Assembly (NCBI GenBank): GCA_040285855.1
Contig: JAUFOQ010000010.1
Span: 434,001-498,000, forward strand
Reading direction: 5' to 3'
Source: Eukaryota sp. GEM-RC1
Lineage: Eukaryota
Length of the DNA: 64,000 nucleotides
Shown: positions 1,199 to 27,589 of the stretch, one piece after another
Numbering within the stretch: position 1 is the stretch's first letter
Layout: every line of letters starts with the position of its first letter
Notes under the pieces: model-generated
Told to the model about the DNA's origin: nothing
What the model saw: only the letters and a program-made list of their open reading frames with translations
The model's database searches: none
Made by a program: the position numbers and the translations under genes

Positions 1199-2650
1199 AT
1201 GTCTCACTATCTCTGTGATATTTGTCATGGAATTCTCAAGAATCCGGTAACTACTTGGTGTGGCCACACCTTTTGTATGTCGGATTTGCAGGAGTGGCTT
1301 GTTTCTCATAACGGATGTCCGATCTGTCGAGCTGAAGTGGACAAGTCAAGGCTGTGTCCTAACTACAAGTTGAAAGAAGCTGTTGAAGCCTTTGTTGCTG
1401 GTCAAGGTGAGACTATTTGTTTTGAGTGTGATGAAGCTGCTGCCACTTGTTATTGCGCAGATTGTGACGCTGATTTCTGTGACAACTGTTTTAACCCTGC
1501 GCATCGCCCCAAGTTGCTACGATCTCATGTTGCTGTCCCCCTAAATAAGAAGCATGCCTACCTTGTTCCTAAGTGCCCCAGCCACAACATGAAGTCGTTA
1601 GAGTTGTTCTGCACCTTCTGCTCCGTTGCCCTTTGTTCCACGTGTGCTTTCCTTGGTGACCATGACCAACACAAGAAGAAGTTGCTTCCCTTCGATGAAG
1701 GTCGAACCTCTGTTGAAAAGAATATCAACTCAATTAATCAAGAGTTGTCGTTAGGCATTGAAAAAATATCACAGTCAGCTGAAGCTGCTATCCAGCAAGC
1801 AACAAGTGGTTTTGTCCAACTCAAAGAAAGTCTGACTCTCCTGCTGCAAGAAACTATGTTAGACTCTGCTACCATTATGAATGACTTACAATCTGGGAAA
1901 CCTGTCATTTTTACGCCAAAGATCAGCGAAAAATTCACTACCACCACTTCAACCCTTCTCAACAACCAATCTAATATCATCTCCTCTTTAAATGAAGAAC
2001 TGTTCTCCATCCACTCCGATGCTTCTCGTCGTTTGACCTCTCTTTCCGTTGATTCGGAGTCTAGTGTTGCTTCTGCTAGGCTTCTAGAAGACCCTCCTTT
2101 ACCAATCAAGTGCATTGAAAGTGTCTGCCCTGTACAACAAGTTGAAGAGAAGAAACTTGTTATTGATTGGAGCAAGCTTAGCTCTAAGTTGAAGAGTTGT
2201 TATGGTCAGATGGTGAGAAATGAGGTTTCTACGATCAATCTAGACATCAACTCAATTGGTACTGAAGGCGCTATTGCAATTGCTGAAGCTTTGAAGGTGA
2301 ATTCTTCACTTTCTACGATCAATCTAAATAACAACTCAATTGGTAATGAAGGCGCTATTGCAATTACTGAAGCTTTGAAGGTGAATTCTTCACTTTCTAC
2401 GATCTATCTATATAACAACTCAATTGGTACTGAAGGCGCTATTGCAATTGCTGAAGCTTTGAAGGTGAATTCTTCACTTTCTACGATCAATCTAAATAAC
2501 AACTCAATTGGTAATGAAGGCGCTATTGCAATTGCTGAAGCTTTGAAGGTGAATTCTTCACTTTCTACGATCAATCTAAATAACAACTCAATCAACAGTC
2601 AAACACAACAGTCGTTAAAATCTCTACACCAGAACAGAGTGTATTTTTAG
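1199..2650 (+). CDS. TRIM/RBCC-like protein with C-terminal RI-type LRRs (RING, B-box1, B-box2, helical linker, 4 LRRs plus cap); putative E3 ubiquitin ligase
   Basis: Intact ORF from ATG 1199. RING CDIC..CGHTFCMSD..CPIC (sixth ligand is Asp), B-box CFEC..CADC..CDNC..H..H, B-box CPSH..CTFC..CSTC..H..H, then 28-aa repeats xxTIxLxxNSIGxEGAIAIAEALKVNSS. Confidence 0.9.
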   Translation: MSHYLCDICHGILKNPVTTWCGHTFCMSDLQEWLVSHNGCPICRAEVDKSRLCPNYKLKEAVEAFVAGQGETICFECDEAAATCYCADCDADFCDNCFNPAHRPKLLRSHVAVPLNKKHAYLVPKCPSHNMKSLELFCTFCSVALCSTCAFLGDHDQHKKKLLPFDEGRTSVEKNINSINQELSLGIEKISQSAEAAIQQATSGFVQLKESLTLLLQETMLDSATIMNDLQSGKPVIFTPKISEKFTTTTSTLLNNQSNIISSLNEELFSIHSDASRRLTSLSVDSESSVASARLLEDPPLPIKCIESVCPVQQVEEKKLVIDWSKLSSKLKSCYGQMVRNEVSTINLDINSIGTEGAIAIAEALKVNSSLSTINLNNNSIGNEGAIAITEALKVNSSLSTIYLYNNSIGTEGAIAIAEALKVNSSLSTINLNNNSIGNEGAIAIAEALKVNSSLSTINLNNNSINSQTQQSLKSLHQNRVYF

Positions 2651-3542
2651 ACATGTTTTTCTTGGATATAAAGATCACATTTTTCAATCACAAATAATTT
2701 CTTATCAGAAACACCATAATTAAACGGTGAATGTATAAAACACTTCAAAAATGATTTAGCTCAGAACAATCATTGTCCCGAACAAAACTCAGAAGTGACT
2801 CACCACAGATAATCAAATATCATGGCTGTTTAGCTGATGTTGAGATACATATTTTAACTACTACTCTGGTGAGTAACACACATCATATTTACTCAGCTGG
2901 TGCTTTTGCGATTGTTCCCAATAACACCAGACATTTATTAGTATCTGAAATAGTGTTTATACTATATACTTACCAATATTTGGAATTGCCAACATTCAAT
3001 CTCATTATTAACACGACTATATTATCCTTTGAGAAGCTTCACTGTCAATATATGATGCTTGGATTATTCTCAGTGATGATTCATATACGTGTTTTTGCAT
3101 TTTTTCAGTAAATCTGACAGTGATAGACAAAGAATTACCAAAACTGTTTCATTGAATATTGCAGTCAATAGCAAGAACACAAATGGCGGCGTTGAATTTA
3201 CGAAGACTCAGTGAAACTATTTTGCTTTCTGCAGTTTTTACATAGGCAAGTAAAAGCTATTGAAATTAAAGAGTATGAATTTGTAATCTTTGTTAACTGA
3301 TTGTTGAGAATTTATTCGCAAATTACAGATATTTTACCAGAAGAAAGAGTGTATATATAGACTTTTTTAATACTGGTTAGAAGTAATATTATTATTTTGT
3401 CTTTGTGTCAAGACACAAAACCGGTTTTTGTACATCTTAACTTATGTAACATATACTAGGTGACACAGCAGTGGATATGTATTCTGTAGACTATCTGAAA
3501 AACACAAAACGTAATTGATAAGGCTTTGAAGAAACACGCGGA

Positions 3543-4373
3543 GTCGTCTTTAAGCCAAAGATCAGCGAAAAATTCACTGCCACCACTTCAACCCTTCTCA
3601 ACAACCAATCTAATATCATCTCCTCTTTAAATGAAGAACTGTTCTCCATCCACTCCGATGCTTCTCGTCGTTTGACCTCTCTTTCCGTTGATTCGGAGTC
3701 TAGTGTTGCTTCTGCTAGGCTTCTAGAAGACCCTCCTTTACCAATCAAGTGCATTGAAAGTGTCTGCCCTGTACAACAAGTTGAAGAGAAGAAACTTGTT
3801 ATTGATTGGAGCAAGCTTAGCTCTAAGTTGAAGAGTTGTTATGATCAAATGGTGAGAAATGAGGTTTCTACGATCAATCTAGACAGCAACTCAATTGGTC
3901 CTGAAGGTGCTATTGCAATTGCTGAAGCTTTGAAGGTGAATTCTTCACTTTCTACGATCTATCTAAATAACAACTCAATTGGTAATGAAGGCGCTATTGC
4001 AATTGCTGAAGCTTTGAAGGTGAATTCTTCACTTTCTACGATCAATCTATATATCAACTCAATTGGTACTGAAGGCGCTATTGCAATTGCTGAAGCTTTG
4101 AAGGTGAATTCTTCACTTTCTACGATCAATCTATATAACAACTCAATTGGTACTGAAGGCGCTATTGCAATTGCTGAAGCTTTGAAGGTGAATTCTTCAC
4201 TTTCTACGATCTATCTACATAACAACTCAATTGGTACTGAAGGCGCTATTGCAATTGCTGAAGCTTTGAAGGTGAATTCTTCACTTTCTACGATCGGTCT
4301 ATCTAACAACTCAATCAACAGTCAAACACAACAGTCGTTAAAATCTCTACACCAGAACAGAGTGTATTTTTAG
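3543..4373 (+). pseudogene. Cassette A1: 5'-truncated TRIM-LRR copy, 5 LRRs plus cap
   Basis: Homology to the gene starts at the codon equivalent to 1904. In-frame TGA TAA lies just upstream (3516-3521). The frame is open to TAG and the only ATG is at MVRNE. Confidence 0.85.
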
Positions 4374-5264
4374 ACATGTTTTTCTTGGATATAAAGATCA
4401 CATTTTTCAATCACAAATAATTTCTTATCAGAAACACCATAATTAAACGGTGAATGTATAAAACACTTCAAAAATGATTTAGCTCAGAACAATCATTGTC
4501 CCGAACAAAACTCAGAAGTGACTCACCACAGATAATCAAATATCATGGCTGTTTAGCTGATGTTGAGATACATATTTTAACTACTACTCTGGTGAGTAAC
4601 ACACATCATATTTACTCAGCTGGTGCTTTTGCGATTGTTCCCAATAACACCAGACATTTATTAGTATCTGAAATAGTGTTTATACTATATACTTACCAAT
4701 ATTTGGAATTGCCAACATTCAATCTCATTATTAACACGACTATATTATCCTTTGAGAAGCTTCACTGTCAATATATGATGCTTGGATTATTCTCAGTGAT
4801 GATTCATATACGTGTTTTTGCATTTTTTCAGTAAATCTGACAGTGATAGACAAAGAATTACCAAAACTGTTTCATTGAATATTGCAGTCAATAGCAAGAA
4901 CACAAATGGCGGCGTTGAATTTACGAAGACTCAGTGAAACTATTTTGCTTTCTGCAGTTTTTACATAGGCAAGTAAAAGCTATTGAAATTAAAGAGTATG
5001 AATTTGTAATCTTTGTTAAATGATTGTTGAGAATTTATTCGCAAATTACAGATATTTTACCAGAAGAAAGAGTGTATATATAGACTTTTTAATACTGGTT
5101 AGAAGTAATATTATTATTTTGTCTTTGTGTCAAGACACAAAACCGGTTTTTGTACATCTTAACTTATGTAACATATACTAGGTGACACAGCAGTGGATAT
5201 GTATTCTGTAGACTATCTGAAAAACACAAAACGTAATTGATAAGGCTTTGAAGAAACACGCGGA

Positions 5265-6179
5265 GTCGTCTTTAAGCCAAAGATCAGCGAAAAATTCACT
5301 GCCACCACTTCAACCCTTCTCAACAACCAATCTAATATCATCTCCTCTTTAAATGAAGAACTGTTCTCCATCCACTCCGATGCTTCTCGTCGTTTGACCT
5401 CTCTTTCCGTTGATTCGGAGTCTAGTGTTGCTTCTGCTAGGCTTCTAGAAGACCCTCCTTTACCAATCAAGTGCATTGAAAGTGTCTGCCCTGTACAACA
5501 AGTTGAAGAGAAGAAACTTGTTATTGATTGGAGCAAGCTTAGCTCTAAGTTGAAGAGTTGTTATGATCAAATGGTGAGAAATGAGGTTTCTACGATCAAT
5601 CTAGACAGCAACTCAATTGGTCCTGAAGGTGCTATTGCAATTGCTGAAGCTTTGAAGGTGAATTCTTCACTTTCTACGATCTATCTAAATAACAACTCAA
5701 TTGGTAATGAAGGCGCTATTGCAATTGCTGAAGCTTTGAAGGTGAATTCTTCACTTTCTACGATCAATCTATATATCAACTCAATTGGTACTGAAGGCGC
5801 TATTGCAATTGCTGAAGCTTTGAAGGTGAATTCTTCACTTTCTACGATCAATCTATATAACAACTCAATTGGTACTGAAGGCGCTATTGCAATTGCTGAA
5901 GCTTTGAAGGTGAATTCTTCACTTTCTACGATCTATCTACATAACAACTCAATTGGTACTGAAGGCGCTATTGCAATTGCTGAAGCTTTGAAGGTGAATT
6001 CTTCACTTTCTACGATCTATCTACATAACAACTCAATTGGTAATGAAGGCGCTATTGCAATTGCTGAAGCTTTGAAGGTGAATTCTTCACTTTCTACGAT
6101 CGGTCTATCTAACAACTCAATCAACAGTCAAACACAACAGTCGTTAAAATCTCTACACCAGAACAGAGTGTATTTTTAG
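5265..6179 (+). pseudogene. Cassette A2: 6 LRRs plus cap
   Basis: Same 5' junction (aaacacgcgga|gtcgtctttaag). One extra IYLHNN module relative to A1. Confidence 0.85.
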
Positions 6180-7070
6180 ACATGTTTTTCTTGGATATAA
6201 AGATCACATTTTTCAATCACAAATAATTTCTTATCAGAAACACCATAATTAAACGGTGAATGTATAAAACACTTCAAAAATGATTTAGCTCAGAACAATC
6301 ATTGTCCCGAACAAAACTCAGAAGTGACTCACCACAGATAATCAAATATCATGGCTGTTTAGCTGATGTTGAGATACATATTTTAACTACTACTCTGGTG
6401 AGTAACACACATCATATTTACTCAGCTGGTGCTTTTGCGATTGTTCCCAATAACACCAGACATTTATTAGTATCTGAAATAGTGTTTATACTATATACTT
6501 ACCAATATTTGGAATTGCCAACATTCAATCTCATTATTAACACGACTATATTATCCTTTGAGAAGCTTCACTGTCAATATATGATGCTTGGATTATTCTC
6601 AGTGATGATTCATATACGTGTTTTTGCATTTTTTCAGTAAATCTGACAGTGATAGACAAAGAATTACCAAAACTGTTTCATTGAATATTGCAGTCAATAG
6701 CAAGAACACAAATGGCGGCGTTGAATTTACGAAGACTCAGTGAAACTATTTTGCTTTCTGCAGTTTTTACATAGGCAAGTAAAAGCTATTGAAATTAAAG
6801 AGTATGAATTTGTAATCTTTGTTAACTGATTGTTGAGAATTTATTCGCAAATTACAGATATTTTACCAGAAGAAAGAGTGTATATATAGACTTTTTAATA
6901 CTGGTTAGAAGTAATATTATTATTTTGTCTTTGTGTCAAGACACAAAACCGGTTTTTGTACATCTTAACTTATGTAACATATACTAGGTGACACAGCAGT
7001 GGATATGTATTCTGTAGACTATCTGAAAAACACAAAACGTAATTGATAAGGCTTTGAAGAAACACGCGGA

Positions 7071-7985
7071 GTCGTCTTTAAGCCAAAGATCAGCGAAAAA
7101 TTCACTGCCACCACTTCAACCCTTCTCAACAACCAATCTAATATCATCTCCTCTTTAAATGAAGAACTGTTCTCCATCCACTCCGATGCTTCTCGTCGTT
7201 TGACCTCTCTTTCCGTTGATTCGGAGTCTAGTGTTGCTTCTGCTAGGCTTCTAGAAGACCCTCCTTTACCAATCAAGTGCATTGAAAGTGTCTGCCCTGT
7301 ACAACAAGTTGAAGAGAAGAAACTTGTTATTGATTGGAGCAAGCTTAGCTCTAAGTTGAAGAGTTGTTATGATCAAATGGTGAGAAATGAGGTTTCTACG
7401 ATCAATCTAGACAGCAACTCAATTGGTAATGAAGGCGCTATTGCAATTGCTGAAGCTTTGAAGGTGAATTCTTCACTTTCTACGATCTATCTATATAACA
7501 ACTCAATTGGTCCTGAAGCCGCTATTGCAATTGCTGAAGCTTTGAAGGTGAATTCTTCACTTTCTAGAATCGATCTAAATAACAACTCAATTGGTAATGA
7601 AGGCGCTATTGCAATTGCTGAAGCTTTGAAGGTGAATTCTTCACTTTCTACGATCAATCTATATAACAACTCAATTGGTACTGAAGGCGCTATTGCAATT
7701 GCTGAAGCTTTGAAGGTGAATTCTTCACTTTCTACGATCTATCTACATAACAACTCAATTGGTACTGAAGGCGCTATTGCAATTGCTGAAGCTTTGAAGG
7801 TGAATTCTTCACTTTCTACGATCTATCTACATAACAACTCAATTGGTAATGAAGGCGCTATTGCAATTGCTGAAGCTTTGAAGGTGAATTCTTCACTTTC
7901 TACGATCGGTCTATCTAACAACTCAATCAACAGTCAAACACAACAGTCGTTAAAATCTCTACACCAGAACAGAGTGTATTTTTAG
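7071..7985 (+). pseudogene. Cassette A3: 6 LRRs plus cap
   Basis: Same junction. First three modules differ from A2 (including RIDLNNN); the last three and the cap match A2. Confidence 0.85.
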
Positions 7986-8876: not shown

Positions 8877-9623
8877 GTCGTCTTTAAGCCAAAGATCAGC
8901 GAAAAATTCACTGCCACCACTTCAACCCTTCTCAACAACCAATCTAATATCATCTCCTCTTTAAATGAAGAACTGTTCTCCATCCACTCCGATGCTTCTC
9001 GTCGTTTGACCTCTCTTTCCGTTGATTCGGAGTCTAGTGTTGCTTCTGCTAGGCTTCTAGAAGACCCTCCTTTACCAATCAAGTGCATTGAAAGTGTCTG
9101 CCCTGTACAACAAGTTGAAGAGAAGAAACTTGTTATTGATTGGAGCAAGCTTAGCTCTAAGTTGAAGAGTTGTTATGATCAAATGGTGAGAAATGAGGTT
9201 TCTACGATCAATCTAGACAGCAACTCAATTGGTAATGAAGGCGCTATTGCAATTGCTGAAGCTTTGAAGGTGAATTCTTCACTTTCTACGATCAATCTAG
9301 ACAGCAACTCAATTGGTAATGAAGGCGCTATTGCAATTGCTGAAGCTTTGAAGGTGAATTCTTCACTTTCTACGATCAATCTAAATAACAACTCAATTGG
9401 TAATGAAGGCGCTATTGCAATTGCTGAAGCTTTGAAGGTGAATTCTTCACTTTCTACGATCTATCTATATAACAACTCAATTGGTACTGAAGGCGCTATT
9501 GCAATTGCTGAAGCTTTGAAGGTGAATTCTTCACTTTCTACGATCAATCTAAATAACAACTCAATCAACAGTCAAACACAACAGTCGTTAAAATCTCTAC
9601 ACCAGAACAGAGTGTATTTTTAG
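8877..9623 (+). pseudogene. Cassette A4: 4 LRRs plus cap
   Basis: Same junction. Duplicated INLDSN module. Confidence 0.85.
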
Positions 9624-10515: not shown

Positions 10516-11262
10516 GTCGTCTTTAAGCCAAAGATCAGCGAAAAATTCACTACCACCACTTCAACCCTTCTCAACAACCAATCTAATATCATCTCCTCTT
10601 TAAATGAAGAACTGTTCTCCATCCACTCCGATGCTTCTCGTCGTTTGACCTCTCTTTCCGTTGATTCGGAGTCTAGTGTTGCTTCTGCTAGGCTTCTAGA
10701 AGACCCTCCTTTACCAATCAAGTGCATTGAAAGTGTCTGCCCTGTACAACAAGTTGAAGAGAAGAAACTTGTTATTGATTGGAGCAAGCTTAGCTCTAAG
10801 TTGAAGAGTTGTTATGATCAAATGGTGAGAAATGAGGTTTCTACGATCAATCTAGACAGCAACTCAATTGGTAATGAAGGCGCTATTGCAATTGCTGAAG
10901 CTTTGAAGGTGAATTCTTCACTTTCTACGATCAATCTAAATAACAACTCAATTGGTAATGAAGGCGCTATTGCAATTGCTGAAGCTTTGAAGGTGAATTC
11001 TTCACTTTCTACGATCTATCTATATAACAACTCAATTGGTACTGAAGGCGCTATTGCAATTGCTGAAGCTTTGAAGGTGAATTCTTCACTTTCTACGATC
11101 AATCTAAATAACAACTCAATTGGTAATGAAGGCGCTATTGCAATTGCTGAAGCTTTGAAGGTGAATTCTTCACTTTCTACGATCAATCTAAATAACAACT
11201 CAATCAACAGTCAAACACAACAGTCGTTAAAATCTCTACACCAGAACAGAGTGTATTTTTAG
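10516..11262 (+). pseudogene. Cassette A5: 4 LRRs plus cap
   Basis: Same junction. Modules 2 to cap match those of the intact gene. Confidence 0.85.
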
Positions 11263-11698: not shown

Positions 11699-12570
11699 TA
11701 GAGATGGGAGCCGGCTCAATTTAGCCGGCTGAGCCGGCTAGCCGAGCCAGCCGACTGGTCCAGAATAGAAAAATTTTCAGCTGCAAGCCGGCTGGCTAAA
11801 TATGTTTTTAGCCGGCTCAAGCCGAATATTTTAGGTTCTCAGAAAACATAGCTAATAAAGAACGAATGATGAATTTAGAAATCGAAAATATCATTTACAG
11901 CGCTTTACAGAACAGTTTAGGGCTACTAATGTTTATCAACGTTCGAGCAACAGTAGAATTGGTGAATATAGTTGATATGTGTCAAATAATTGCCCTACTG
12001 TTTTTCTTGGGCACTGATAGTACATTCAGTGCCTTATGTACATTGTCGCAGTGTCTATTTCTGACACTTTAAATGTCTATTACATCTTTTGCTTCCAAAT
12101 AAACCGCTATACTTGTGTTCCGAGACAGTAAAAAACCTAGAGTCCGTCAGAGCTCTTCCTCCAACGACTTTGTTTCTTTAGGACTAATTAAGCTCCTTCT
12201 CAAAAGTACTATCGTACTGTTGTCATATTTTAGGCAGACAGCCAATTCCATAGTGGTGTTTCGATTGTTTCACAGATTCAAGCGATAACTAACCGTCAAG
12301 TATATAAGTGATAATCACAAAAATATGTGACATGTAAAATCTGTGAAAACTGGAATGTACTGATCAATAGTATCAGCATTGTGTCGTTTTGATACTCGGT
12401 GTAGTTGTCATTAACAATGGTTCTGAATCATTTTATTGATATATCAACCAACATGCGGCTGAGCCGGCTTTAGCCGGCTTGAGCTGGCTAAAATGCGTTG
12501 TAAGCCGCAGCCGGCTGGCTAATGCCTGCGGCTTAGCCGTGAGCAAATTTTGAGCCGGCTCCCATCTATA
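11699..12570. mobile_element. Non-autonomous hAT-like element (MITE), 872 bp
   Basis: 21-bp TIR TA(G/T)AGATGGGAGCCGGCTCAA, perfect 8-bp TSD ATTCATAT (11691-11698 and 12571-12578), subterminal AGCCGGCT repeats. The empty site is visible in the other array A spacers. Confidence 0.92.
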
Positions 12571-13033: not shown

Positions 13034-14675
13034 GTCGTCTTTAAGCCAAAGATCAGCGAAAAATTCACTACCACCACTTCAACCCTTCTCAACAACCAAT
13101 CTAATATCATCTCCTCTTTAAATGAAGAACTGTTCTCCATCCACTCCGATGCTTCTCGTCGTTTGACCTCTCTTTCCGTTGATTCGGAGTCTAGTGTTGC
13201 TTCTGCTAGGCTTCTAGAAGACCCTCCTTTACCAATCAAGTGCATTGAAAGTGTCTGCCCTGTACAACAAGTTGAAGAGAAGAAACTTGTTATTGATTGG
13301 AGCAAGCTTAGCTCTAAGTTGAAGAGTTGTTATGATCAAATGGTGAGAAATGAGGTTTCTACGATCAATCTAGACAGCAACTCAATTGGTAATGAAGGCG
13401 CTATTGCAATTGCTGAAGCTTTGAAGGTGAATTCTTCACTTTCTACGATCAATCTATATAGCAACTCAATTGGTAATGAAGGCGCTATTGCAATTGCTGA
13501 AGCTTTGAAGGTGAATTCTTCACTTTCTACGATCAATCTAAATAACAACTCAATTGGTAATGAAGGCGCTATTGCAATTGCTGAAGCTTTGAAGGTGAAT
13601 TCTTCACTTTCAACCATAGTTGCAAAATACAAAATACAGTATTTTTTTGTATTCTGTATTTTTTCTGTATTATGTTTTGTATTTTTTTCTGGACAAGTGT
13701 ATTTGTATTTTTTGTATTTATTTATCAGCCCGAAAATCCCTTTAATTGATGAAAATGACTGAAGTCATTGAGAGCAACACTCGACAGCGGATCTTTCTGA
13801 TCAATTGTACTATTGTTTGGAACAATTGGCACATGTATTATTTTAACAACTTGCAGAAATGCTAGTACAACTGTTTGCTGAATTTTCGAAACGTTCCAGT
13901 ACAGTACGTCAACGGCGTATGCTAGATGACTAAAAAGTGAAACACCGACCAAAGTCAAGTAACAAAAATTTAGAAACGCTTAATAATGTTCTTTCCAAAG
14001 AGTTGAAAAATACCAAACCATGTGAAGTTGTGCAATCTAGTTTCACTACTGTCAGTCAGTGATGAAGATTTAAAGCCCTGATGAGACGAGCTGCACGACA
14101 CTCAGATTGATCCTGTTTTGAAGATGTACGTGTAGTCTTTGGAGACTATGATTTCGAGTATATACATTTTTACCTACACTCGATGTATAAAGACGATTTA
14201 CAACTAATGTGCGAGACAAAAAGTGTCCAAAGTCACATTGTAAAACTGTACGACTCCACGTCAGTTCTTTCCGTGGACCAAGTGCACATTTGAACCCTCG
14301 GTGCATTTCAGAATCGAAATAACAATTGGGTTGATAAATGAAAAAAGTCTAAGAATGTGTACTGAAGAGGTGAACCATGATAACCCTGAAAATCAATCAC
14401 GTTTGCAGTCATTGGACTCAATACACTTGGTTTAATACTTGCAATTACTAGAAAGAAAAACAATTAATACAGTATTCTGTATTGTATTTGTATTCTGTAT
14501 TCTGTATTGTATTTTTGTAAATTTATTCTGTATTTTTTGTATTCTGTATTGTATTATTTTTTTGTCCGTGTATTTTGCAACTATGCTTTCAACGATCTAT
14601 CTACATAACAACTCAATCAACAGTCAAACACAACAGTCGTTAAAATCTCTACACCAGAACAGAGTGTATTTTTAG
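13034..14675 (+). pseudogene. Cassette A6: 3 LRRs plus cap, interrupted by a MITE
   Basis: Same junction. The LRR frame is broken at 13615 and resumes after 14585 (IYLHNN cap). Confidence 0.85.
13615..14585. mobile_element. Non-autonomous hAT-like element (MITE), 971 bp
   Basis: Perfect 17-bp TIR CATAGTTGCAAAATACA, 8-bp TSD CTTTCAAC (13607-13614 and 14586-14593), TGTATT-rich subterminal repeats. Confidence 0.93.
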
Positions 14676-15566: not shown

Positions 15567-16565
15567 GTCGTCTTTAAGCCAAAGATCAGCGAAAAATTCA
15601 CTACCACCACTTCAACCCTTCTCAACAACCAATCTAATATCATCTCCTCTTTAAATGAAGAACTTTTCTCCATCCACTCCGATGCTTCTCGTCGTTTGAC
15701 CTCTCTTTCCGTTGATTCGGAGTCTATTGTTGCTTCTGCTAGGCTTCTAGAAGACCCTCCTTTACCAATCAAGTGCATTGAAAGTGTCTGCCCTGTACAA
15801 CAAGTTGAAGAGAAGAAACTTGTTATTGATTGGAGCAAGCTTAGCTCTAAGTTGAAGAGTTGTTATGATCAAATGGTGAGAAATGAGGTTTCTACGATCA
15901 ATCTAGACAGCAACTCAATTGGTAATGAAGGCGCTATTGCAATTGCTGAAGCTTTGAAGGTGAATTCTTCACTTTCTACGATCAATCTATATAACAACTC
16001 AATTGGTAATGAAGGCGCTATTGCAATTGCTGAAGCTTTGAAGGTGAATTCTTCACTTTCTACGATCAATCTAAATAACAACTCAATTGGTCCTGAAGGC
16101 GCTATTGCAATTGCTGAAGCTTTGAAGGTGAATTCTTCACTTTCTACGATCTCTCTATATAACAACTCAATTGGTCCTGAAGGCGCTATTGCAATTGCTG
16201 AAGCTTTGAAGGTGAATTCTTCACTTTCTACGATCTCTCTATATAACAACTCAATTGGTCCTGAAGGCGCTATTGCAATTGCTGAAGCTTTGAAGGTGAA
16301 TTCTTCACTTTCTACGATCTCTCTATATAACAACTCAATTGGTCCTGAAGGCGCTATTGCAATTGCTGAAGCTTTGAAGGTGAATTCTTCACTTTCTACG
16401 ATCTCTCTATATAACAACTCAATTGGTCCTGAAGGCGCTATTGCAATTGCTGAAGCTTTGAAGGTGAATTCGTTTGTTTCTACGATTGGTCTAGGTAACA
16501 ACTCAATCAACAGTCAAATACAACAGTCATTAAAATCACTGCACAAGAATAGAATTCGTTTTTAA
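15567..16565 (+). pseudogene. Cassette A7: 7 LRRs plus cap, A/B chimera
   Basis: Type-A upstream spacer and linker, but ISLYNN x4, FVSTIGLGNN and the cap QIQQSLKSLHKNRIRF plus 3' flank are type B. Confidence 0.85.
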
Positions 16566-17125: not shown

Positions 17126-17299
17126 ATTTCTCATTTCTATCTATCTAACAACTCAATTGTTCCTGAAGGCGCTACTGCAATTGCTGAAGCTTTGAAGGTG
17201 AATTCTTCACTGTCTACGATCTATCTAGGTGACAACTCAATTAACAGTCAAACACAACAGTCGTTAAAATCACTGCACAAGAATAGAATTCGTTTCTAA
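17126..17299 (+). pseudogene. Cassette B1: 1 LRR plus cap
   Basis: LRR homology begins at att tct cat ttc tat cta. There is no in-frame ATG (the ORF call uses TTG). Confidence 0.8.
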
Positions 17300-17859: not shown

Positions 17860-18033
17860 ATTTCTCATTTCTATCTATCTAACAACTCAATTGTTCCTGA
17901 AGGCGCTACTGCAATTGCTGAAGCTTTGAAGGTGAATTCTTCACTGTCTACGATCTATCTAGGTGACAACTCAATTAACAGTCAAACACAACAGTCGTTA
18001 AAATCACTGCACAAGAATAGAATTCGTTTCTAA
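17860..18033 (+). pseudogene. Cassette B2: 1 LRR plus cap
   Basis: Copy of B1, 734 bp downstream. Confidence 0.8.
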
Positions 18034-18555
18034 AGATATTTTCCTCTGATATAAAGATCACCCCATTATAAGTCACACATGAACAAATATCAAAGCAGTT
18101 TAGCAGTCGATCATACATAGATTGATTTTCAGTTTTACCCGGTAATTAAGACTCGTCATATCGAAAAGTTCATTTGCTATTGTTTTCAACAACACCACGT
18201 ATTAATTGGTATCTGGAAATGAAGTAACATTATACTATATGTTTCGAAATATTTCGAATCACCGACACATTGTCTCGCTGTTAACACGGTTGTATTTTTT
18301 CTCAAAAAACAGCTTAATTGTCCTTGAGTTGAGTGATGCTTTGATTATTCTCAGTGATATATAAGATGTACAGTATCCTTTTGTATGTGTTCCATAGATA
18401 TTTTAGTCATGGTAATTTATTGAATATTGGTCAAAATTAGATTGTTCGTTAGATTCTGTTTTAGTGATCTGTTATTTAATTGGAAATCTTGTCGCGCACT
18501 CTTAACATACAAAGTAGGTCTTTGCTTATCTTAAATTGAGTGTATTATCTAACGC

Positions 18556-20288
18556 ATGAAGTCGTTAGAGTTGTTCTGCACCTTCTGCTCCGTCGCCCTT
18601 TGTTCCACGTGTGCTTTCCTTGGTGACCATGACCAACACAAAAAGAAGTTGCTTCCCTTCAATGAAGGTCGAACCTCCATTGAAAAGAATATTAACTCCA
18701 TTAATCAAGAGTTGTCGTTAGCCATTGAAAAATATCACAGTCAGCTGAAGCTGCCATCCAGCAAGCAACAAATGGTTTTGTCCAACTCAAAGAAAGTCTG
18801 ACTGTCATTTTGCAAGAAACTATGTTAGATTCTGCTACCATTATGAATAACTTACAATCTGGGAAACCTGTCGTGTTTAAGCCAAAGATCAGCGAAAAAT
18901 TCACTACCACCACATCAACCCTTCTCAACAACCAATCTGATGTCATTACTTCTTTAAATGAAGAACTTTGCTCTATCCACTCCGATGCTTCTCGTCGTTT
19001 GACCTCTCTTTCCGTTGATTCGGAGTCCAGTGTTCCTTCTGCTAGGCTTTTAGATGATACTCCTTTACCAATCAAGTCTATTGACAGTTTATGCCCTGTG
19101 CAACAAGTTCAAGAGAAGAAGCTTGTTATTGATTGGAGCAAGCTTAGCTCTAAGTTGAAGAATTGTTATGATCAAATGGTGAGAAATGAGGTTTCTACGA
19201 TTTATCTAGGTAACTACTCAATTGGTCCTGAAGGTGCTATTGCAATTGTTGAAGCTTTGAAGGTGAATTCGTCTGTTTCTACGATCAATCTGTATATCAA
19301 CTCAATTGGTCCTGAAGGCACTATTGCAATTGCTGAAGCTTTAAAGGTGAATTCTTCTGTTTCTACGATCGATCTACGTAGCAACTCAATTGGTCCTGAA
19401 GGCACTATTGCAATTGCTGAAGCTTTGAAGGTGAATTCGTCTGTTTCTCAGATCGATCTACGTAGCAACTCAATTGGTCCTGAAGGTGCTATTGCAATTG
19501 CTGAAGCTTTGAAGGTGAATTCGTCTGTTTCTCAGATCGATCTACGTAGCAACTCAATTGGTCCGGAAGGCGCTATTGCAATTGCTGAAGCTTTGAAGGT
19601 GAATTCTTCAGTTTCTTCGATTTATCTAAATAACAACTCAATTGGTCCGGAAGGCGCTATTGCAATTGCTGAAGCTTTGAAGGTGAATTCTTCACTTTCT
19701 ACGATCTATCTATATAACAACTCAATTGGTACTGAAGGCGCTATTGCAATTGCTGAAGCTTTGAAGGTGAATTCTTCACTTTCTACGATCTATCTATATA
19801 ACAACTCAATTGGTCCTGAAGGCGCTATTGCAATTGCTGAGGCTTTGAAGGTGAATTCGTCTGTTTCTACGATTGGTCTAGGTAACAACTCAATTGGTCC
19901 TGAAGGCGCTATTGCAATTGCTGAAGCTTTGAAGGTGAATTCTTCACTTTCTACGATCTCTCTATATAACAACTCAATTGGTCCTGAAGGCGCTATTGCA
20001 ATTGCTGAGGCTTTGAAGGTGAATTCGTCTGTTTCTACGATTGGTCTAGGTAACAACTCAATTGGTAATGAAGGCGCTATTGCAATTGCTGAGGCTTTGA
20101 AGGTGAATTCGTTTGTTTCTACGATCTATCTAGGTAACAACTCAATTGGTAATGAAGGCGCTATTGCAATTGCTGAAGCTTTGAAGGTGAATTCTTCACT
20201 GTCTACGATCTATCTAGGTAACAACTCAATCAACAGTCAAATACAACAGTCATTAAAATCACTGCACAAGAATAGAATTCGTTTTTAA
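18556..20288 (+). pseudogene. Long 5'-truncated paralogue of the TRIM-LRR gene (half of B-box2, linker, 12 LRRs plus cap) with a 1-bp frameshift
   Basis: Homology starts at the ATG equivalent to gene position 1589, so RING and B-box1 are absent. A5 instead of A6 at about 18728-18732 shifts the frame, which could be a homopolymer error. Confidence 0.85.
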
Positions 20289-20848: not shown

Positions 20849-23800
20849 ATTTCTCATTTCTATCTATCTAACAACTCAATTGTTCCTGAAGGCGCTATTG
20901 CAATTGCTGAAGCTTTGAAGGTGAATTCGTCTGTTTCTCACATTCATGTCTCTTACAACTCAATTGGTAATGAAGGCGCTATTGCAATTGCTGAAGCTTT
21001 GAAGGTGAATTCTTCAGTTTCTACGATTTATCTATATAACAACTCAATTGGTAATGAAGGCGCTATTGCAATTGCTGAAGCTTTGAAGGTGAATTCTTCA
21101 CTGTCTACGATCTATCTAGGTAACAACTCAATCAACAGTCAAATACAACAGTCATTAAAATCACTGCACAAGAATAGAATTCGTTTTTAAAGATATTTTC
21201 CTCTGATATAAAGATCACCCCATTATAAGTCGCACATGAAGAAATATCAATGTTGTTTAGCAGTTGATCATACACAGATTGATTTTCAGTTTTACCCGGT
21301 AATTAAGACTCGTCATATCGAAAAGTTCATTTGCTATTGTTTTCAACAACACCAGGTATTAATTGGTATCTGGAAATGATGTAACATTATACTATATTTT
21401 TCGAAATATTTCGAATCACCGACACATTGTCTCGCTGTTAACACGGTTACATTTTTTCTCAAAAAACAGCTTAATCGTCCTTGAGTTGAGTGATGCTTTG
21501 ATTATTCTCAGTGATATAAAAGATGTACAGTATCCTTTTGTATGTGTTCCATAGATATTTTAGTCATGGTAATTTGTTGAATATTGGTCAAAATTAGGTT
21601 GTTCGTTAGACTCTGTTTTAGTGATCTGTAATTTAATTGGAAATCTTGTCGCACAATTGTCTTAACATACAAAGTAGGTCTTTGATTATCTTAAATCTAA
21701 CGTTATCTAAGCTTCTCTTCAATAGACATGTGTTCTATAAACCGGCTAGAATTTCTCATTTCTATCTATCTAACAACTCAATTGTTCCTGAAGGCGCTAT
21801 TGCAATTGCTGAAGCTTTGAAGGTGAATTCGTCTGTTTCTCACATTCATGTCTCTTACAACTCAATTGGTAATGAAGGCGCTATTGCAATTGCTGAAGCT
21901 TTGAAGGTGAATTCTTCAGTTTCTACGATCTATCTAGGTAACAACTCAATTGGTAATGAAGGCGCTATTGCAATTGCTGAAGCTTTGAAGGTGAATTCTT
22001 CACTGTCTACGATCTATCTAAGTAACAACTCAATCAACAGTCAAATACAACAGTCATTAAAATCACTGCACAAGAATAGAATTCGTTTTTAAAGATATTT
22101 TCCTCTGATATAAAGATCACCCCATTATAAGTCGCACATGAAGAAATATCAATGTTGTTTAGCAGTTGTTGATACACAGATTGATTTTCAGTTTTACCCG
22201 GTAATTAAGACTCGTCATATCGAAAAGTTCATTTGCTATTGTTTTCAACAACACCAGGTATTAATTGGTATCTGGAAATGATGTATCATTATGCTATATT
22301 TTTCGAAATATTTCGAATCACCGACACATTGTCTCGTTGTTAACACGGTTACATTTTTTCTCAAAAAACAGCTTAATCGTCCTTGAGTTGAGTGATGCTT
22401 TGATTATTCTCAGTGATATAAAAGATGTACAGTATCCTTTTGTATGTGTTCCATAGATATTTTAGTCATGGTAATTTGTTGAATATTGGTCAAAATTAGG
22501 TTGTTCGTTAGACTCTGTTTTAGTGATCTGTAATTTAATTGGAAATCTTGTCGCACAATTGTCTTAACATACAAAGTAGGTCTTTGATTATCTTAAATCT
22601 AACGTTAGCTAAGCTTCTCTTCAATAGACATGTGTTCTATAAACCGGCTAGAATTTCTCATTTCTATCTATCTAACAACTCAATTGTTCCTGAAGGCGCT
22701 ATTGCAATTGCTGAAGCTTTGAAGGTGAATTCGTCTGTTTCTCACATTCATGTCTCTTACAACTCAATTGGTAATGAAGGCGCTATTGCAATTGCTGAAG
22801 CTTTGAAGGTGAATTCTTCAGTTTCTACGATTTATCTATATAACAACTCAATTGGTAATGAAGGCGCTATTGCAATTGCTGAAGCTTTGAAGGTGAATTC
22901 TTCACTGTCTACGATCTATCTAGGTAACAACTCAATCAACAGTCAAATACAACAGTCATTAAAATCACTGCACAAGAATAGAATTCGTTTTTAAAGATAT
23001 TTTCCTCTGATATAAAGATCACCCCATTATAAGTCGCACATGAAGAAATATCAATGTTGTTTAGCAGTTGTTGATACACAGATTGATTTTCAGTTTTACC
23101 CGGTAATTAAGACTCGTCATATCGAAAAGTTCATTTGCTATTGTTTTCAACAACACCAGGTATTAATTGGTATCTGGAAATGATGTAACATTATACTATA
23201 TTTTTCGAAATATTTCGAATCACCGACACATTGTCTCGCTGTTAACACGGTTACATTTTTTCTCAAAAAACAGCTTAATCGTCCTTGAGTTGAGTGATGC
23301 TTTGATTATTCTCAGTGATATAAAAGATGTACAGTATCCTTTTGTATGTGTTCCATAGATATTTTAGTCATGGTAATTTGTTGAATATTGGTCAAAATTA
23401 GGTTGTTCGTTAGACTCTGTTTTAGTGATCTGTAATTTAATTGGAAATCTTGTCGCACAATTGTCTTAACATACAAAGTAGGTCTTTGATTATCTTAAAT
23501 CTAACGTTATCTAAGCTTCTCTTCAATAGACATGTGTTCTATAAACCGGCTAGAATTTCTCATTTCTATCTATCTAACAACTCAATTGTTCCTGAAGGCG
23601 CTATTGCAATTGCTGAAGCTTTGAAGGTGAATTCGTCTGTTTCTCACATTCATGTCTCTTACAACTCAATTGGTAATGAAGGCGCTATTGCAATTGCTGA
23701 AGCTTTGAAGGTGAATTCTTCAGTTTCTACGATTTATCTATATAACAACTCAATTGGTAATGAAGGCGCTATTGCAATTGCTGAAGCTTTGAAGGTGAAT

Positions 23801-26800
23801 TCTTCACTGTCTACGATCTATCTAAGTAACAACTCAATCAACAGTCAAATACAACAGTCATTAAAATCACTGCACAAGAATAGAATTCGTTTTTAAAGAT
23901 ATTTTCCTCTGATATAAAGATCACCCCATTATAAGTCGCACATGAAGAAATATCAATGTTGTTTAGCAGTTGTTGATACACAGATTGATTTTCAGTTTTA
24001 CCCGGTAATTAAGACTCGTCATATCGAAAAGTTCATTTGCTGTTGTTTTCAACAACACCAGGTATTAATTGGTATCTGGAAATGATGTAACATTATGCTA
24101 TATTTTTCGAAATATTTCGAATCACCGACACATTGTCTCGTTGTTAACACGGTTACATTTTTTCTCAAAAAACAGCTTAATCGTCCTTGAGTTGAGTGAT
24201 GCTTTGATTATTCTCAGTGATATAAAAGATGTACAGTATCCTTTTGTATGTGTTCCATAGATATTTTAGTCATGGTAATTTGTTGAATATTGGTCAAAAT
24301 TAGGTTGTTCGTTAGACTCTGTTTTAGTGATCTGTAATTTAATTGGAAATCTTGTCGCACAATTGTCTTAACATACAAAGTAGGTCTTTGATTATCTTAA
24401 ATCTAACGTTATCTAAGCTTCTCTTCAATAGACATGTGTTCTATAAACCGGCTAGAATTTCTCATTTCTATCTATCTAACAACTCAATTGTTCCTGAAGG
24501 CGCTATTGCAATTGCTGAAGCTTTGAAGGTGAATTCGTCTGTTTCTCACATTCATGTCTCTTACAACTCAATTGGTAATGAAGGCGCTATTGCAATTGCT
24601 GAAGCTTTGAAGGTGAATTCTTCAGTTTCTACGATTTATCTATATAACAACTCAATTGGTAATGAAGGCGCTATTGCAATTGCTGAAGCTTTGAAGGTGA
24701 ATTCTTCACTGTCTACGATCTATCTAGGTAACAACTCAATCAACAGTCAAATACAACAGTCATTAAAATCACTGCACAAGAATAGAATTCGTTTTTAAAG
24801 ATATTTTCCTCTGATATAAAGATCACCCCATTATAAGTCGCACATGAAGAAATATCAATGTTGTTTAGCAGTTGTTGATACACAGATTGATTTTCAGTTT
24901 TACCCGGTAATTAAGACTCGTCATGTCATATCGAAAAGTTCATTTGCTATTGTTTTCAACAACACCAGGTATTAATTGGTATCTGGAAATGATGTAACAT
25001 TATACTATATTTTTCGAAATATTTCGAATCACCGACACATTTTCTCCTTGTTAACACGGTTACATTTTTTCTCAAAAAACAGCTTAATCGTCCTTGAGTT
25101 GAGTGATGCTTTGATTATTCTCAGTGATATAAAAGATGTACAGTATCCTTTTGTATGTGTTCCATAGATATTTTAGTCATGGTAATTTGTTGAATATTGG
25201 TCAAAATTAGGTTGTTCGTTAGACTCTGTTTTAGTGATCTGTAATTTAATTGGAAATCTTGTCGCACAATTGTCTTAACATACAAAGTAGGTCTTTGATT
25301 ATCTTAAATCTAACGTTATCTAAGCTTCTCTTCAATAGACATGTGTTCTATAAACCGGCTAGAATTTCTCATTTCTATCTATCTAACAACTCAATTGTTC
25401 CTGAAGGCGCTATTGCAATTGCTGAAGCTTTGAAGGTGAATTCGTCTGTTTCTCACATTCATGTCTCTTACAACTCAATTGGTAATGAAGGCGCTATTGC
25501 AATTGCTGAAGCTTTGAAGGTGAATTCTTCAGTTTCTACGATTTATCTATATAACAACTCAATTGGTAATGAAGGCGCTATTGCAATTGCTGAAGCTTTG
25601 AAGGTGAATTCTTCACTGTCTACGATCTATCTAGGTAACAACTCAATCAACAGTCAAATACAACAGTCATTAAAATCACTGCACAAGAATAGAATTCGTT
25701 TTTAAAGATATTTTCCTCTGATATAAAGATCACCCCATTATAAGTCGCACATGAAGAAATATCAATGTTGTTTAGCAGTTGTTGATACACAGATTGATTT
25801 TCAGTTTTACCCGGTAATTAAGACTCGTCATGTCATATCGAAAAGTTCATTTGCTATTGTTTTCAACAACACCAGGTATTAATTGGTATCTGGAAATGAT
25901 GTAACATTATACTATATTTTTCGAAATATTTCGAATCACCGACACATTGTCTCGTTGTTAACACGGTTACATTTTTTCTCAAAAAACAGCTTAATCGTCC
26001 TTGAGTTGAGTGATGCTTTGATTATTCTCAGTGATATAAAAGATGTACAGTATCCTTTTGTATGTGTTCCATAGATATTTTAGTCATGGTAATTTGTTGA
26101 ATATTGGTCAAAATTAGGTTGTTCGTTAGACTCTGTTTTAGTGATCTGTAATTTAATTGGAAATCTTGTCGCACAATTGTCTTAACATACAAAGTAGGTC
26201 TTTGATTATCTTAAATCTAACGTTATCTAAGCTTCTCTTCAATAGACATGTGTTCTATAAACCGGCTAGAATTTCTCATTTCTATCTATCTAACAACTCA
26301 ATTGTTCCTGAAGGCGCTATTGCAATTGCTGAAGCTTTGAAGGTGAATTCGTCTGTTTCTCACATTCATGTCTCTTACAACTCAATTGGTAATGAAGGCG
26401 CTATTGCAATTGCTGAAGCTTTGAAGGTGAATTCTTCAGTTTCTACGATTTATCTATATAACAACTCAATTGGTAATGAAGGCGCTATTGCAATTGCTGA
26501 AGCTTTGAAGGTGAATTCTTCAGTTTCTAAGATTATTCTAGATATCAACTCAATTAACAGTCAAACACAGCAGTCATTAAAATCACTGCACAAGAATAGA
26601 ATTCGTTTCTGAAGATATTTTCCTCAGTTATAAAGATCACCCCATTTTCAGTCACACATGAACAAATATCAAAGCGGTTTAAAAGTTGTTCATACACATA
26701 TTTATTTTCAGTTTTACCTGATCATCAAGACACGTCATATCAAAAGTTCATTTGCTATTGTTTTCAACAACACCACGTATTAATTGGTATCTGGAAATGA

Positions 26801-27510
26801 TGTAACATTATACTATATGTTTCGAAATATTTCGAATCACCGACACATTGTCTCGTCATAAACACGGTTGTATTTTTTCTCAAAAAACAGCTTAATCGTC
26901 CTTGAGTTGAGTGATGCTTTGATTATTCTCAGTGATATTAAAGATGTACAGTATCCTTTTGTATGTGTTCCATAGATATTTCAGTCATGGTAATTTGTTG
27001 AATATTGGTCAAAATTAGGTTGTTCGTTAGACTCTGTTTTAGTGATCTGTAATTTAATTGGAAATCTTGTCGCACAATTGTCTTAACATACAAAGAAGGT
27101 CTTTGATTATCTTAAATCTAACGTTATCTAAGCTTCTCTTCAATAGACATGTGTTCTATAAACCGGCTAGAATTTCTCATTTCTATCTATCTAACAACTC
27201 AATTGGTCCTGAAGGCGCTATTGCAATTGCTGAAGCTTTGAAGGTGAATTCGTCTGTTTCTACGATCAATCTACATAACAACTCAATTGGTCCTAAAGGC
27301 GCTATTGCAATTGCTGAAGCTTTGAAGGTGAATTCGTCTGTTTCTCACATTCATCTTTATAACAACTCAATTGGTAATGAAGGCGCTATTGCAATTGCTG
27401 AAGCTTTGAAGGTGAATTCGTCTGTTTCTACGATTTATCTAGATAACAACTCAATTAACAGTCAAACACAACAGTCGTTAAAAACACTACACAAGAATAG
27501 AATTCATTTC
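20849..27510 (+). pseudogene. Cassettes B3-B10: eight LRR-only cassettes, 3 LRRs plus cap each (starts 20849, 21751, 22653, 23555, 24457, 25364, 26271, 27172)
   Basis: Open frames without any Met. Mostly identical, with variants IYLGNN/IYLSNN/IILDIN/IYLDNN in the cap. B10 differs in all modules and has lost its stop codon. Confidence 0.82.
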
Positions 27511-27589
27511 AGATTTGCAGATTCCTACATTTTTCAAAAACTGTTCGTAAAAAATTAACAAATCTTAATTAAAATTAATATTTAACAAT

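What the first reader, a model, noticed from the sequence alone, without database searches (positions are those of the whole stretch)
1199..27510. One complete TRIM-LRR E3 gene followed by an archive of 18 headless LRR cassettes: candidate cassette-based diversification system for an intracellular receptor
Seen: only the first copy has RING and both B-boxes. All 18 downstream same-strand copies are 5'-truncated but keep the LRR block, stop codon (except B10) and 3' flank. Their LRR frames are open apart from one MITE hit, and LRR number (1-12) and order vary. Type-A cassettes share about 320 bp of near-identical linker upstream of the LRRs and the whole 3' flank with the gene. A single deletion or gene-conversion event would therefore put a new in-frame LRR block on the RING/B-box head. 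Established: expression-site plus silent-cassette layouts drive Borrelia vlsE, trypanosome VSG, chicken Ig and lamprey VLR (also LRR-module based) diversification, and TRIM C-terminal domains choose ubiquitination targets. Inference: a retargetable cytosolic E3 sensor, possibly anti-virus or anti-endosymbiont, in a unicellular eukaryote. Passive tandem amplification by unequal crossing over is the null model.
Basis: partly seen in the sequence, partly recalled or inferred. Interest (0 to 1): 0.9.

Follow-up and report, generated by a model that had tools for sequence, protein, structure and literature searches.

The report
Headless LRR copies trailing TRIM gene
A predicted ubiquitin-ligase gene with a variable leucine-rich-repeat tail is followed by 18 headless copies of its own 3' end; they are likely by-products of tandem duplication in a fast-shuffling protist gene family, and likely leak repeat pieces back into the gene now and then rather than forming a dedicated switching system.

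Summary
The array is real. One intact RING/B-box/B-box/coiled-coil/LRR gene (1199-2650) is followed by 18 same-strand 5'-truncated copies. These come from only three breakpoints (7 A, 1 C, 10 B) and encode 14 distinct LRR blocks. The 84-bp repeats are about 91% identical and recombine (86 of 190 site pairs incompatible; copy A7 is an A/B chimera). Variation piles up on exposed strand residues (pN/pS 2.2, against 0.15 on the helix side).

Against a vls-type system: 13 other RING/B-box heads and 7 headless LRR models are annotated in the organism holding all close relatives (GEM-RC1, likely a Skoliomonas metamonad). Cassettes recombine with each other. Two transposon insertions and one frameshift hit the array. 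Selection on cassettes is not demonstrable. The gene's private linker bases are in 0 of 7 A cassettes.

For some donor role: the gene's first repeat carries a 3' half found only in cassettes A1 and A2, and a second head-plus-cassette locus with the same junction is implied by model P0020.

Best reading: a Podospora-NWD-like shuffled-repeat receptor family whose partial tandem duplicates act as an incidental repeat reservoir. No reads or RNA were available.

The parts
1199..2650 (+). Gene G, 483 aa: RING (aa 6-44; C-C-C-H-C-D-C-C, sixth ligand Asp), B-box 1 (74-111), B-box 2 (124-160), coiled-coil hairpin (165-282), disordered linker, 4 RI-type 28-aa LRRs plus capping repeat (2225-2647)
2225..2308 (+). 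First LRR of G: codons 1-7 identical to the first repeat of 7 of 7 A cassettes, codons 8-28 identical only to repeat 3 of A1 and A2; candidate micro-conversion tract
2651..3542 (+). A-type 3' flank (892 bp), repeated after A1-A6
3543..4373 (+). Cassette A1: linker from gene position 1904, 5 LRRs + cap, stop
5265..6179 (+). Cassette A2: 6 LRRs + cap
7071..7985 (+). Cassette A3: 6 LRRs + cap
8877..9623 (+). Cassette A4: 4 LRRs + cap
10516..11262 (+). Cassette A5: 4 LRRs + cap; block equals G's apart from repeat 1 and one base in repeat 2
11699..12570 (.). Non-autonomous TIR element 1 in the flank after A5, 8-bp target duplication (hAT-like by TSD length; class recalled)
13034..14675 (+). Cassette A6: 3 LRRs + cap, interrupted by TIR element 2
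13615..14585 (.). Non-autonomous TIR element 2, 8-bp target duplication; a 77% identical relative lies at 30197-31106
15567..16565 (+). Cassette A7: chimera of A linker with B/C-type last repeats, cap and flank; 7 LRRs + cap
17128..17299 (+). Cassette B1: starts inside an LRR, 1 LRR + cap, no in-frame ATG
17862..18033 (+). Cassette B2: same protein block as B1
18555..20288 (+). Copy C: truncated older paralogue with most of B-box 2, coiled coil (1-nt frameshift in an A-run near 18725), linker, 12 LRRs + cap; 92.8% to G; pN/pS to G 0.31
20851..25705 (+). Cassettes B3-B8 (blocks at 20849, 21751, 22653, 23555, 24457, 25364): about 902-bp near-clonal units, 3 LRRs + cap each, three distinct protein blocks
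26273..26612 (+). Cassette B9: divergent cap and flank
27174..27558 (+). Cassette B10: last copy; homology ends near 27510 and the stop is lost, so the frame runs on to 27558

Best explanation
The locus is one intact member of a multi-copy RING/B-box/coiled-coil/LRR gene family followed by 18 truncated tandem copies of its 3' end, which likely arose as by-products of three partial duplications and likely serve only as an incidental pool of repeat modules.

Shown by the sequence:
- Three breakpoints (gene position 1904, position about 1588, and inside an LRR), each placing a 3' flank in front of a headless 3' part.
- Amplification of A and B units, exchange of 84-bp repeats within and between units, and variation concentrated at strand positions 3, 5, 7, 8 and loop position 13.

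Inferred:
- Unequal crossing-over or re-integration of a circle amplified the units.
- Non-allelic gene conversion among repeats that are about 91% identical shuffles modules in all directions and keeps the cassette LRR frames open without selection on the cassettes.
- Selection acts on the headed genes. These would be dimeric TRIM-type E3 ligases whose concave LRR face picks the target, probably a non-self or fast-changing one.
- Short tracts occasionally pass from cassettes into G (one candidate in repeat 1). A deletion joining the head to an A block is possible but left no trace in this haplotype.
For: - Three shared breakpoints explain all 18 copies. B3-B8 flanks differ by only 1-10 of about 560 columns.
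- Recombination among repeats: 86 of 190 informative site pairs fail the four-gamete test, Rm 6, over 34 distinct repeats. A7 and C carry tails 1-6 differences from B3-B6.
- High internal conservation is specific to this family: G 0.95, A2 0.95, C 0.90, against 0.52-0.82 for the 7 other LRR genes in the window.
- pN/pS is 2.20 at positions 3, 5, 7, 8 and 0.15 on the helix side. Positions 3-5 form the strand in the model.
- Family scale in GEM-RC1-named proteins: 13 heads at 75-99% identity over the first 159 aa, 6 joined to LRRs, and 7 headless LRR models with several different starts.
- Decay marks: 2 TIR insertions, 1 frameshift, 1 lost stop, and no in-frame ATG in 10 of 10 B copies.
- G's private bases at 1907, 1909, 1914, 2205 and 2209 are in 0 of 7 A cassettes.
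- Precedent: Podospora NWD repeats shuffle within and between genes, and pseudogene repeats stay nearly intact (PMC4986451; PMC13449251).
Against: - 14 of 18 cassettes encode distinct blocks, more variety than a simple clonal expansion gives.
- If homopolymer indels in the flank are real, A cassettes have fewer disabling hits than expected (1 vs 5.5, P=0.03; without them 1 vs 1.8, P=0.48).
- The linker varies less than the flank (3/321 vs 20/892, P=0.16, not significant).
- The head-plus-A-cassette layout appears to exist at a second locus or allele whose head differs at 12 of 342 residues and whose cassettes have their own variants. The layout has therefore persisted.
- The a priori test for diversifying selection is only marginal (21 amino-acid vs 4 synonymous variants at x positions, 14 vs 10 elsewhere, P=0.06).
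- E3 activity and any defence role are untested. G has three private substitutions at otherwise invariant residues (11, 186, 336) plus one in LRR 2, so it may itself be under relaxed selection.
Confidence: 0.64

Rival explanations
1. Selected orphan-module reservoir. The headless A cassettes are kept because ordinary homologous recombination through the 321-bp linker or the LRRs now and then retargets the ligase, as orphan rhs modules do in Salmonella. No dedicated machinery is needed.
For: In-frame geometry. G repeat 1 carries a 3' half found only in A1 and A2, and Ile at position 8 is absent from 84 repeats of the relatives. A7 shows that a 5' part can be joined to another unit's tail. A second head-plus-cassette locus has a matching junction. 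14 distinct blocks. Precedent: PMC3967940 abstract.
Against: G's linker-private bases are not shared with any of 7 A cassettes. G's other repeats match A4/A5 and modules in the P0020 head, so they look ancestral rather than swapped. The repeat-1 tract is only two bases 15 bp apart and could come from a repeat since lost from G or from another paralogue. At least 6 other full-length genes already supply diversity. Selection on cassettes was inconclusive.
Confidence: 0.2
2. Some headless copies are expressed. A1-A7 and C could make LRR-only or coiled-coil-LRR proteins from an internal ATG (decoys or dominant-negative partners), or the head could be spliced to a cassette through the AG at the A junction.
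For: 8 of 18 copies have an in-frame ATG before the LRRs. Gene model P0020 joins cassettes at an acceptor that matches the A-junction AG in phase. 7 headless LRR models are annotated in GEM-RC1.
Against: 10 of 10 B copies have no ATG. The P0020 joins fall at variable LRR codons and drop the cap and stop, which looks like gene-predictor behaviour (inference). No natural in-phase donor lies at the head's breakpoint.
Confidence: 0.08
3. Programmed vls/VSG-type system: one expression site diversified in the clone by one-way segmental conversion from a silent archive.
For: Contiguous headless cassettes next to a full gene, more than 90% identical over the variable region.
Against: Many heads rather than one. 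Cassettes recombine with each other. There are three unrelated breakpoints, and cassettes keep the stop and the non-coding flank. Near-clonal B units add little diversity.
Confidence: 0.04
4. The array is largely an assembly artefact of long noisy reads over an 84-bp repeat.
For: A1/A2 and B3-B8 are nearly identical. Single-base indels sit in homopolymers. The named relatives' assembly used Nanopore R9.4 reads with Illumina correction (PMC11316075).
Against: Units carry shared multi-site haplotypes, two TIR insertions with perfect 8-bp target duplications, a 5-bp duplication shared by B7 and B8, and three distinct junctions. A separate model shows the same layout. At most the copy number and the homopolymer frameshifts are in doubt.
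Confidence: 0.04

Closest known systems
Podospora NWD/HNWD (het-d, het-e, het-r) and other fungal NLRs with high-internal-conservation repeats (PMC4986451: passages and section 13 read; PMC13449251: passages read)
   Same: Repeats above 85% identical, repeat shuffling within and between family members, variation at a few residues per repeat, pseudogenes whose repeats stay intact.
   Different: Here the repeats are RI-type LRRs (none found in fungal NLRs per PMC4986451), the head is RING/B-box/coiled-coil with no NACHT or NB-ARC, and the broken copies form a head-to-tail array directly behind a gene.
Orphan rhs / polymorphic-toxin C-terminal modules (PMC3967940: abstract read)
   Same: A full gene followed on the same strand by headless 3' modules that share upstream homology, so one recombination can fuse a new C-terminus to the head.
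   Different: Rhs orphans are unrelated toxin-immunity pairs and fusion was shown experimentally. Here the modules are near-identical duplicates, nothing marks them as maintained, and fusion is not shown.
Borrelia vlsE and silent cassettes (PMC11499132: abstract read)
   Same: Contiguous silent-looking cassettes about 90% or more identical to the variable part of an adjacent gene.
   Different: vls has a single expression site, one-way conversion and a head-to-head layout. Here there are many heads, a head-to-tail layout, cassettes that recombine with each other, and each cassette keeps stop and 3' flank.
TRIM/RBCC ubiquitin ligases (PMC3503706: passages read; TRIM28, TRIM2, TRIM3, TRIM25 structures)
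   Same: RING, two B-boxes and a long coiled-coil hairpin in TRIM order, then a C-terminal recognition domain.
   Different: The C-terminal domain is an RI/NLR-type LRR (best fold matches NOD2, NLRX1, NLRP1). 'LRR' and 'leucine' occur 0 times in PMC3503706. The sixth RING ligand is Asp. One unnamed protein elsewhere (P0145) also has RING/B-box/LRR, so the architecture is rare but not unique.
Ectocarpus ROCO LRR exon shuffling (PMC3341825: abstract read) and Tetrahymena 90-bp-exon LRR genes (PMC6564038: abstract read)
   Same: Young, fast-turning-over LRR families in algae and protists, diversified by repeat shuffling and proposed as recognition proteins.
   Different: There each repeat is an exon. 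Here the 84-bp repeats are uninterrupted and sit in whole 3'-end duplicates.

Membership tests
TRIM/RBCC protein | N-terminal RING followed by one or two B-boxes | tested here: met
   Pfam zf-C3HC4 types at 6-44, B-boxes at 74-111 and 124-160; 7 of 8 RING ligands canonical, sixth is Asp
TRIM/RBCC protein | Coiled coil after the B-boxes | tested here: met
   Helices 165-220 and 244-282 in the model, pLDDT 58-77; TRIM28 match over residues 39-203, E 1e-10
TRIM/RBCC protein | E3 ubiquitin-ligase activity | not testable with these tools
   Inferred from domain order only
High-internal-conservation shuffled-repeat receptors (NWD-like) | Repeats at least 85% identical within a gene | tested here: met
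   0.95 nucleotide identity in G and A2, 0.90 in C
High-internal-conservation shuffled-repeat receptors (NWD-like) | Repeat exchange within and between copies | tested here: met
   86 of 190 incompatible site pairs, A7 chimera, identical repeats in G, A4, A5 and C
High-internal-conservation shuffled-repeat receptors (NWD-like) | Positive selection at a few residues per repeat | tested here: inconclusive
   Pairwise pN/pS 2.20 at positions 3, 5, 7, 8 vs 0.15 (pairs not independent); allele census P=0.06
High-internal-conservation shuffled-repeat receptors (NWD-like) | NACHT or NB-ARC domain (needed to be an NLR/NWD member) | tested here: not met
   None among 13 Pfam hits for G; it works like an NWD but is not one
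vls-type expression site plus silent cassettes | Single expression locus | tested here: not met
   13 other heads, 6 with LRRs, among GEM-RC1-named relatives; assumes the window is from that organism or a close strain
vls-type expression site plus silent cassettes | Contiguous cassettes about 90% identical to the variable region | tested here: met
vls-type expression site plus silent cassettes | One-way conversion leaving donors unchanged | tested here: not met
   Cassettes are themselves mosaics of each other; this is an evolutionary-time test, not a within-clone test
vls-type expression site plus silent cassettes | High-rate switching within a clone; cassettes silent | not testable with these tools
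   Needs reads or RNA
Orphan-module (rhs-like) reservoir | Headless same-strand 3' modules with in-frame upstream homology | tested here: met
   7 A cassettes, 327 bp at 97.9-98.5%; not met for 10 B cassettes
Orphan-module (rhs-like) reservoir | Modules maintained by selection and shown to fuse to the head | tested here: inconclusive
   Disabling-hit test P=0.03-0.48; one two-base candidate tract; linker-private bases unshared

The most novel reading that the evidence does not exclude
Free-living metamonads retarget a cytosolic TRIM-LRR ubiquitin ligase from adjacent orphan LRR cassettes. Head-plus-archive loci are kept at several places in the genome, and recombination through the shared linker or the repeats generates new binding faces fast enough to be selected within populations, giving a single-celled eukaryote an anticipatory intracellular immune repertoire.
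Probability: 0.15. Interest if true: 0.85.

Novelty: new variant of a known kind. Interest (0 to 1): 0.47.

Why it matters
Even under the passive reading, this is an apparently undescribed TRIM-LRR family in a free-living anaerobic protist. Its LRR faces are shuffled like fungal NWD sensors, which makes it a candidate for cell-autonomous recognition in a lineage with no described immune receptors that my searches found. The locus also gives a cheap, sharp test of whether headless 3' duplicates feed a live receptor gene: amplicons from the RING to the 3' flank in clones, scored with the private marker bases listed here. If whole-block swaps occur and are selected, it would be a cassette-based retargeting of an intracellular E3 in a unicellular eukaryote, for which my searches found no precedent.

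Tried and rejected
- Whole genome: none held, so other head-plus-cassette loci could be judged only from protein models.
- Sequencing runs: none was listed; this is no evidence either way.
- Metagenome scan with the head: 306 pattern matches, 0 confirmed.
- Search for longer fused forms: 1 unrelated hit. P0020 surfaced only as a cluster member.
- Earlier scan findings: nothing in 4 answered look-ups.
- Rfam: 0 matches in the window.
- Small frames in the flanks, in the two TIR elements and after the array: 0 Pfam families for 6 of 6.
- ESM Atlas: top hits were RING/B-box clusters (0.91-0.92) and B-box+LRR_4 clusters below 0.9, leads only.
- 'Open frames prove selection' was rejected: only about 4% of substitutions give stops, copies differ little, and the result flips with homopolymer indels.
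- '18 independent archived cassettes' was rejected: three breakpoints.
- Regular splicing of the head onto cassettes was considered and rated low.
- Literature: no paper describing this family or array appeared in searches, and PMC11316075 main text has 0 hits for 'leucine'. Its supplements were not opened and may hold expression values for these genes. Most subscription papers are not in the library.
Full report
OBSERVATION. The gene G runs from 1199 to 2650 without introns and encodes 483 aa. Pfam finds a RING (6-44), two B-boxes (74-111, 124-160) and RI-type LRRs. An AlphaFold model from a 15-sequence alignment (mean pLDDT 66, LRR part about 80-91, zinc domains low) gives a long helix 165-220, a return helix 244-282, a disordered linker and five LRR strands. 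The LRR part matches NOD2, NLRX1 and NLRP1 best by fold, and the head matches TRIM28 and other TRIMs by sequence. Downstream lie 18 same-strand truncated copies with 1-12 full 84-bp LRRs and a capping repeat.

ANATOMY. The 18 copies come from three breakpoints. Seven A copies start at gene position 1904 and share 327 bp with G at 97.9-98.5%. One copy, C, starts near position 1588, keeps most of B-box 2 and the coiled coil, is 92.8% identical to G and has a 1-nt frameshift in an A-run. G versus C gives pN/pS 0.31 (P=5e-5), so C descends from a functional paralogue. Ten B copies start inside an LRR, have no linker and no in-frame ATG, and use a flank only 66-70% like G's. B3-B8 differ by 1-10 of about 560 columns. 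Two non-autonomous TIR elements with 8-bp target duplications have landed in the array, one in a flank and one in the LRRs of A6. The last copy has lost its stop. The cassettes encode 14 distinct LRR blocks out of 18. A tandem unit that begins inside a gene and ends in its 3' flank leaves the head on the first copy only, so the one-head layout needs no special explanation (inference from geometry).

REPEAT DYNAMICS. All full repeats in the array average 0.91 nucleotide identity (G 0.95), against 0.52-0.82 inside the seven other LRR genes of the window. Among 34 distinct repeats (first repeats of B copies left out), 86 of 190 informative site pairs fail the four-gamete test, with at least 6 recombination events; recurrent mutation could add to that count. 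A7 joins an A linker to a B-type cap and flank, which shows exchange through the LRRs between unit types. Amino-acid variation is concentrated at repeat positions 3, 5, 7, 8 and 13. Pairwise pN/pS is 2.20 at 3, 5, 7, 8 and 0.15 on the helix side (the pairs are not independent, and position 13 was picked after looking). A stricter census at the six a priori exposed positions of the LRR motif (motif recalled) gives 21 amino-acid against 4 synonymous variants, versus 14 against 10 elsewhere, P=0.06. Positions 3-5 form the strand in the model; that this is the ligand-binding face is established LRR knowledge, not tested here. 8 of 25 strand motifs of the array recur in relatives.

DOES THE HEAD DRAW ON THE CASSETTES? 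Against: G differs from all 7 A cassettes at 1907, 1909, 1914, 2205 and 2209. The last two lie 16-20 bp before the LRRs, and the resulting Gly336 is in 0 of 13 relatives that cover the site. A swap through the linker would have removed these bases from G or passed them to a cassette. G's repeats 2-5 equal those of A5 but for one base and use modules also present on the P0020 head, so they look ancestral. For: G's repeat 1 has codons 1-7 of the A-type first repeat and codons 8-28 identical only to repeat 3 of A1 and A2. The ancestral first repeat is seen in five cassettes and, at protein level, on the P0020 head, and Ile at position 8 is in 0 of 84 repeats found in relatives. This is a two-base tract. 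Conversion from A1 or A2 is the simplest reading, but loss of an internal repeat from G or an unseen paralogue would look the same. Are cassettes under selection? For A copies one disabling hit is seen where flank rates predict 1.8 without homopolymer indels (P=0.48) or 5.5 with them (P=0.03). Linker versus flank substitutions give P=0.16. This is inconclusive. In Podospora, pseudogene repeats stay nearly intact through repeat homogenisation alone (PMC13449251, passages).

FAMILY CONTEXT. All close relatives are named Eukaryota sp. GEM-RC1 by their source. I equate this with Skoliomonas sp. GEMRC, a free-living metamonad, from the names (PMC11316075; passages and section 6 read; genome 48% repetitive). 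The window is likely from this organism or a close strain; I did not establish its record, and G's exact protein is not in the collection. Of 22 such proteins held were aligned with G (the cluster look-ups added 9 to the 12 direct hits, so the aligned set is all of them). 13 carry the RING/B-box head at 75-99% identity over the first 159 residues. Six of these are joined to LRRs in one model, and one has an unrelated tail. Four break off at the same place after B-box 2, perhaps a homopolymer error (inference). Seven are headless LRR models with several different starts. P0020 (985 aa) is a model of a head differing from G at 12 of 342 residues, joined to two further linker-plus-LRR units. The residues at its joints are what the AG at the window's A junction would give, and its blocks and a shared linker deletion differ from the window's. 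It therefore implies a second locus or allele with a head and at least two A-type cassettes; this rests on protein letters only. In the wider search (3950 hits, best 150 listed), an LRR profile hit 15 of the 172 proteins held: 14 GEM-RC1-named and one unnamed RING/B-box/LRR protein, P0145. Five related heads named TZLM1-RC have no LRR. The RBCC-LRR expansion thus looks young and lineage-specific within what was searched.

MECHANISM AND VERDICT. The best-supported account is a birth-and-death family of predicted TRIM-type E3 ligases whose LRR face is diversified by concerted repeat shuffling, as in Podospora NWD genes (PMC4986451, passages and section 13). At this locus, partial tandem duplicates were amplified and now take part in the same repeat traffic (confidence 0.64). 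A selected orphan-module reservoir in the manner of Salmonella rhs (PMC3967940, abstract) remains open (0.20). Expression of headless copies (0.08), a programmed vls-like system (0.04; defining features from the PMC11499132 abstract) and assembly artefact (0.04) are less likely. Ectocarpus and Tetrahymena LRR shuffling are further precedents (abstracts). No paper on this family appeared in searches, and supplements were not opened. E3 activity, expression, targets and any immune role are untested. The locus is still a clean test case for pseudogene-fed retargeting of an intracellular receptor in a protist. Interest 0.47.

Noticed in passing
window 28393-29934(-), 35296-36300(+), 37373-39595(+), 41596-42564(+), 43335-44741(-), 51525-52931(-), 54893-56542(-): Seven more RI-type LRR genes lie in the other 36 kb. 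Most share an unannotated N-terminal region, their internal repeat identity is 0.52-0.82, and none has a comparable headless array. The 37373 gene appears split by a stop at 39092-39094.
   Followed up: partly
window 30197-31106: A 77% identical inverted relative of the TIR element that interrupts cassette A6.
   Followed up: partly
window 56786-57380: Degraded fragments of the neighbouring LRR gene family (68-73% identity).
   Followed up: no
window 27693-27995(+): A 100-aa frame just after the point where the last cassette loses homology. It recalls the C-terminal end of a non-LTR retroelement (from memory), but Pfam gives no hit.
   Followed up: partly
window 62119-63501(-): Sodium:dicarboxylate symporter family gene (PF00375, E 1e-36), intronless; origin not examined.
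   Followed up: no
window 46709-47506(-): A 265-aa frame with one hydrophobic segment and an acidic, Cys-containing domain; no Pfam hit.
   Followed up: no
window 63609-63866: 30-bp tandem repeat, about 8 copies, near the window end.
   Followed up: no
P0003 (GEMRC1_008656): The same RING/B-box/coiled-coil head joined to an unrelated C-terminal domain in place of LRRs, showing tail replacement in the family.
   Followed up: no
P0017, P0018, P0019, P0021: Four near-identical heads go out of frame at the same place after B-box 2; possibly a homopolymer sequencing error, in which case more intact genes exist than are annotated.
   Followed up: no
P0012, P0013, P0022: Headless models of another subfamily share one novel start, suggesting a further shared breakpoint and perhaps more arrays.
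   Followed up: no
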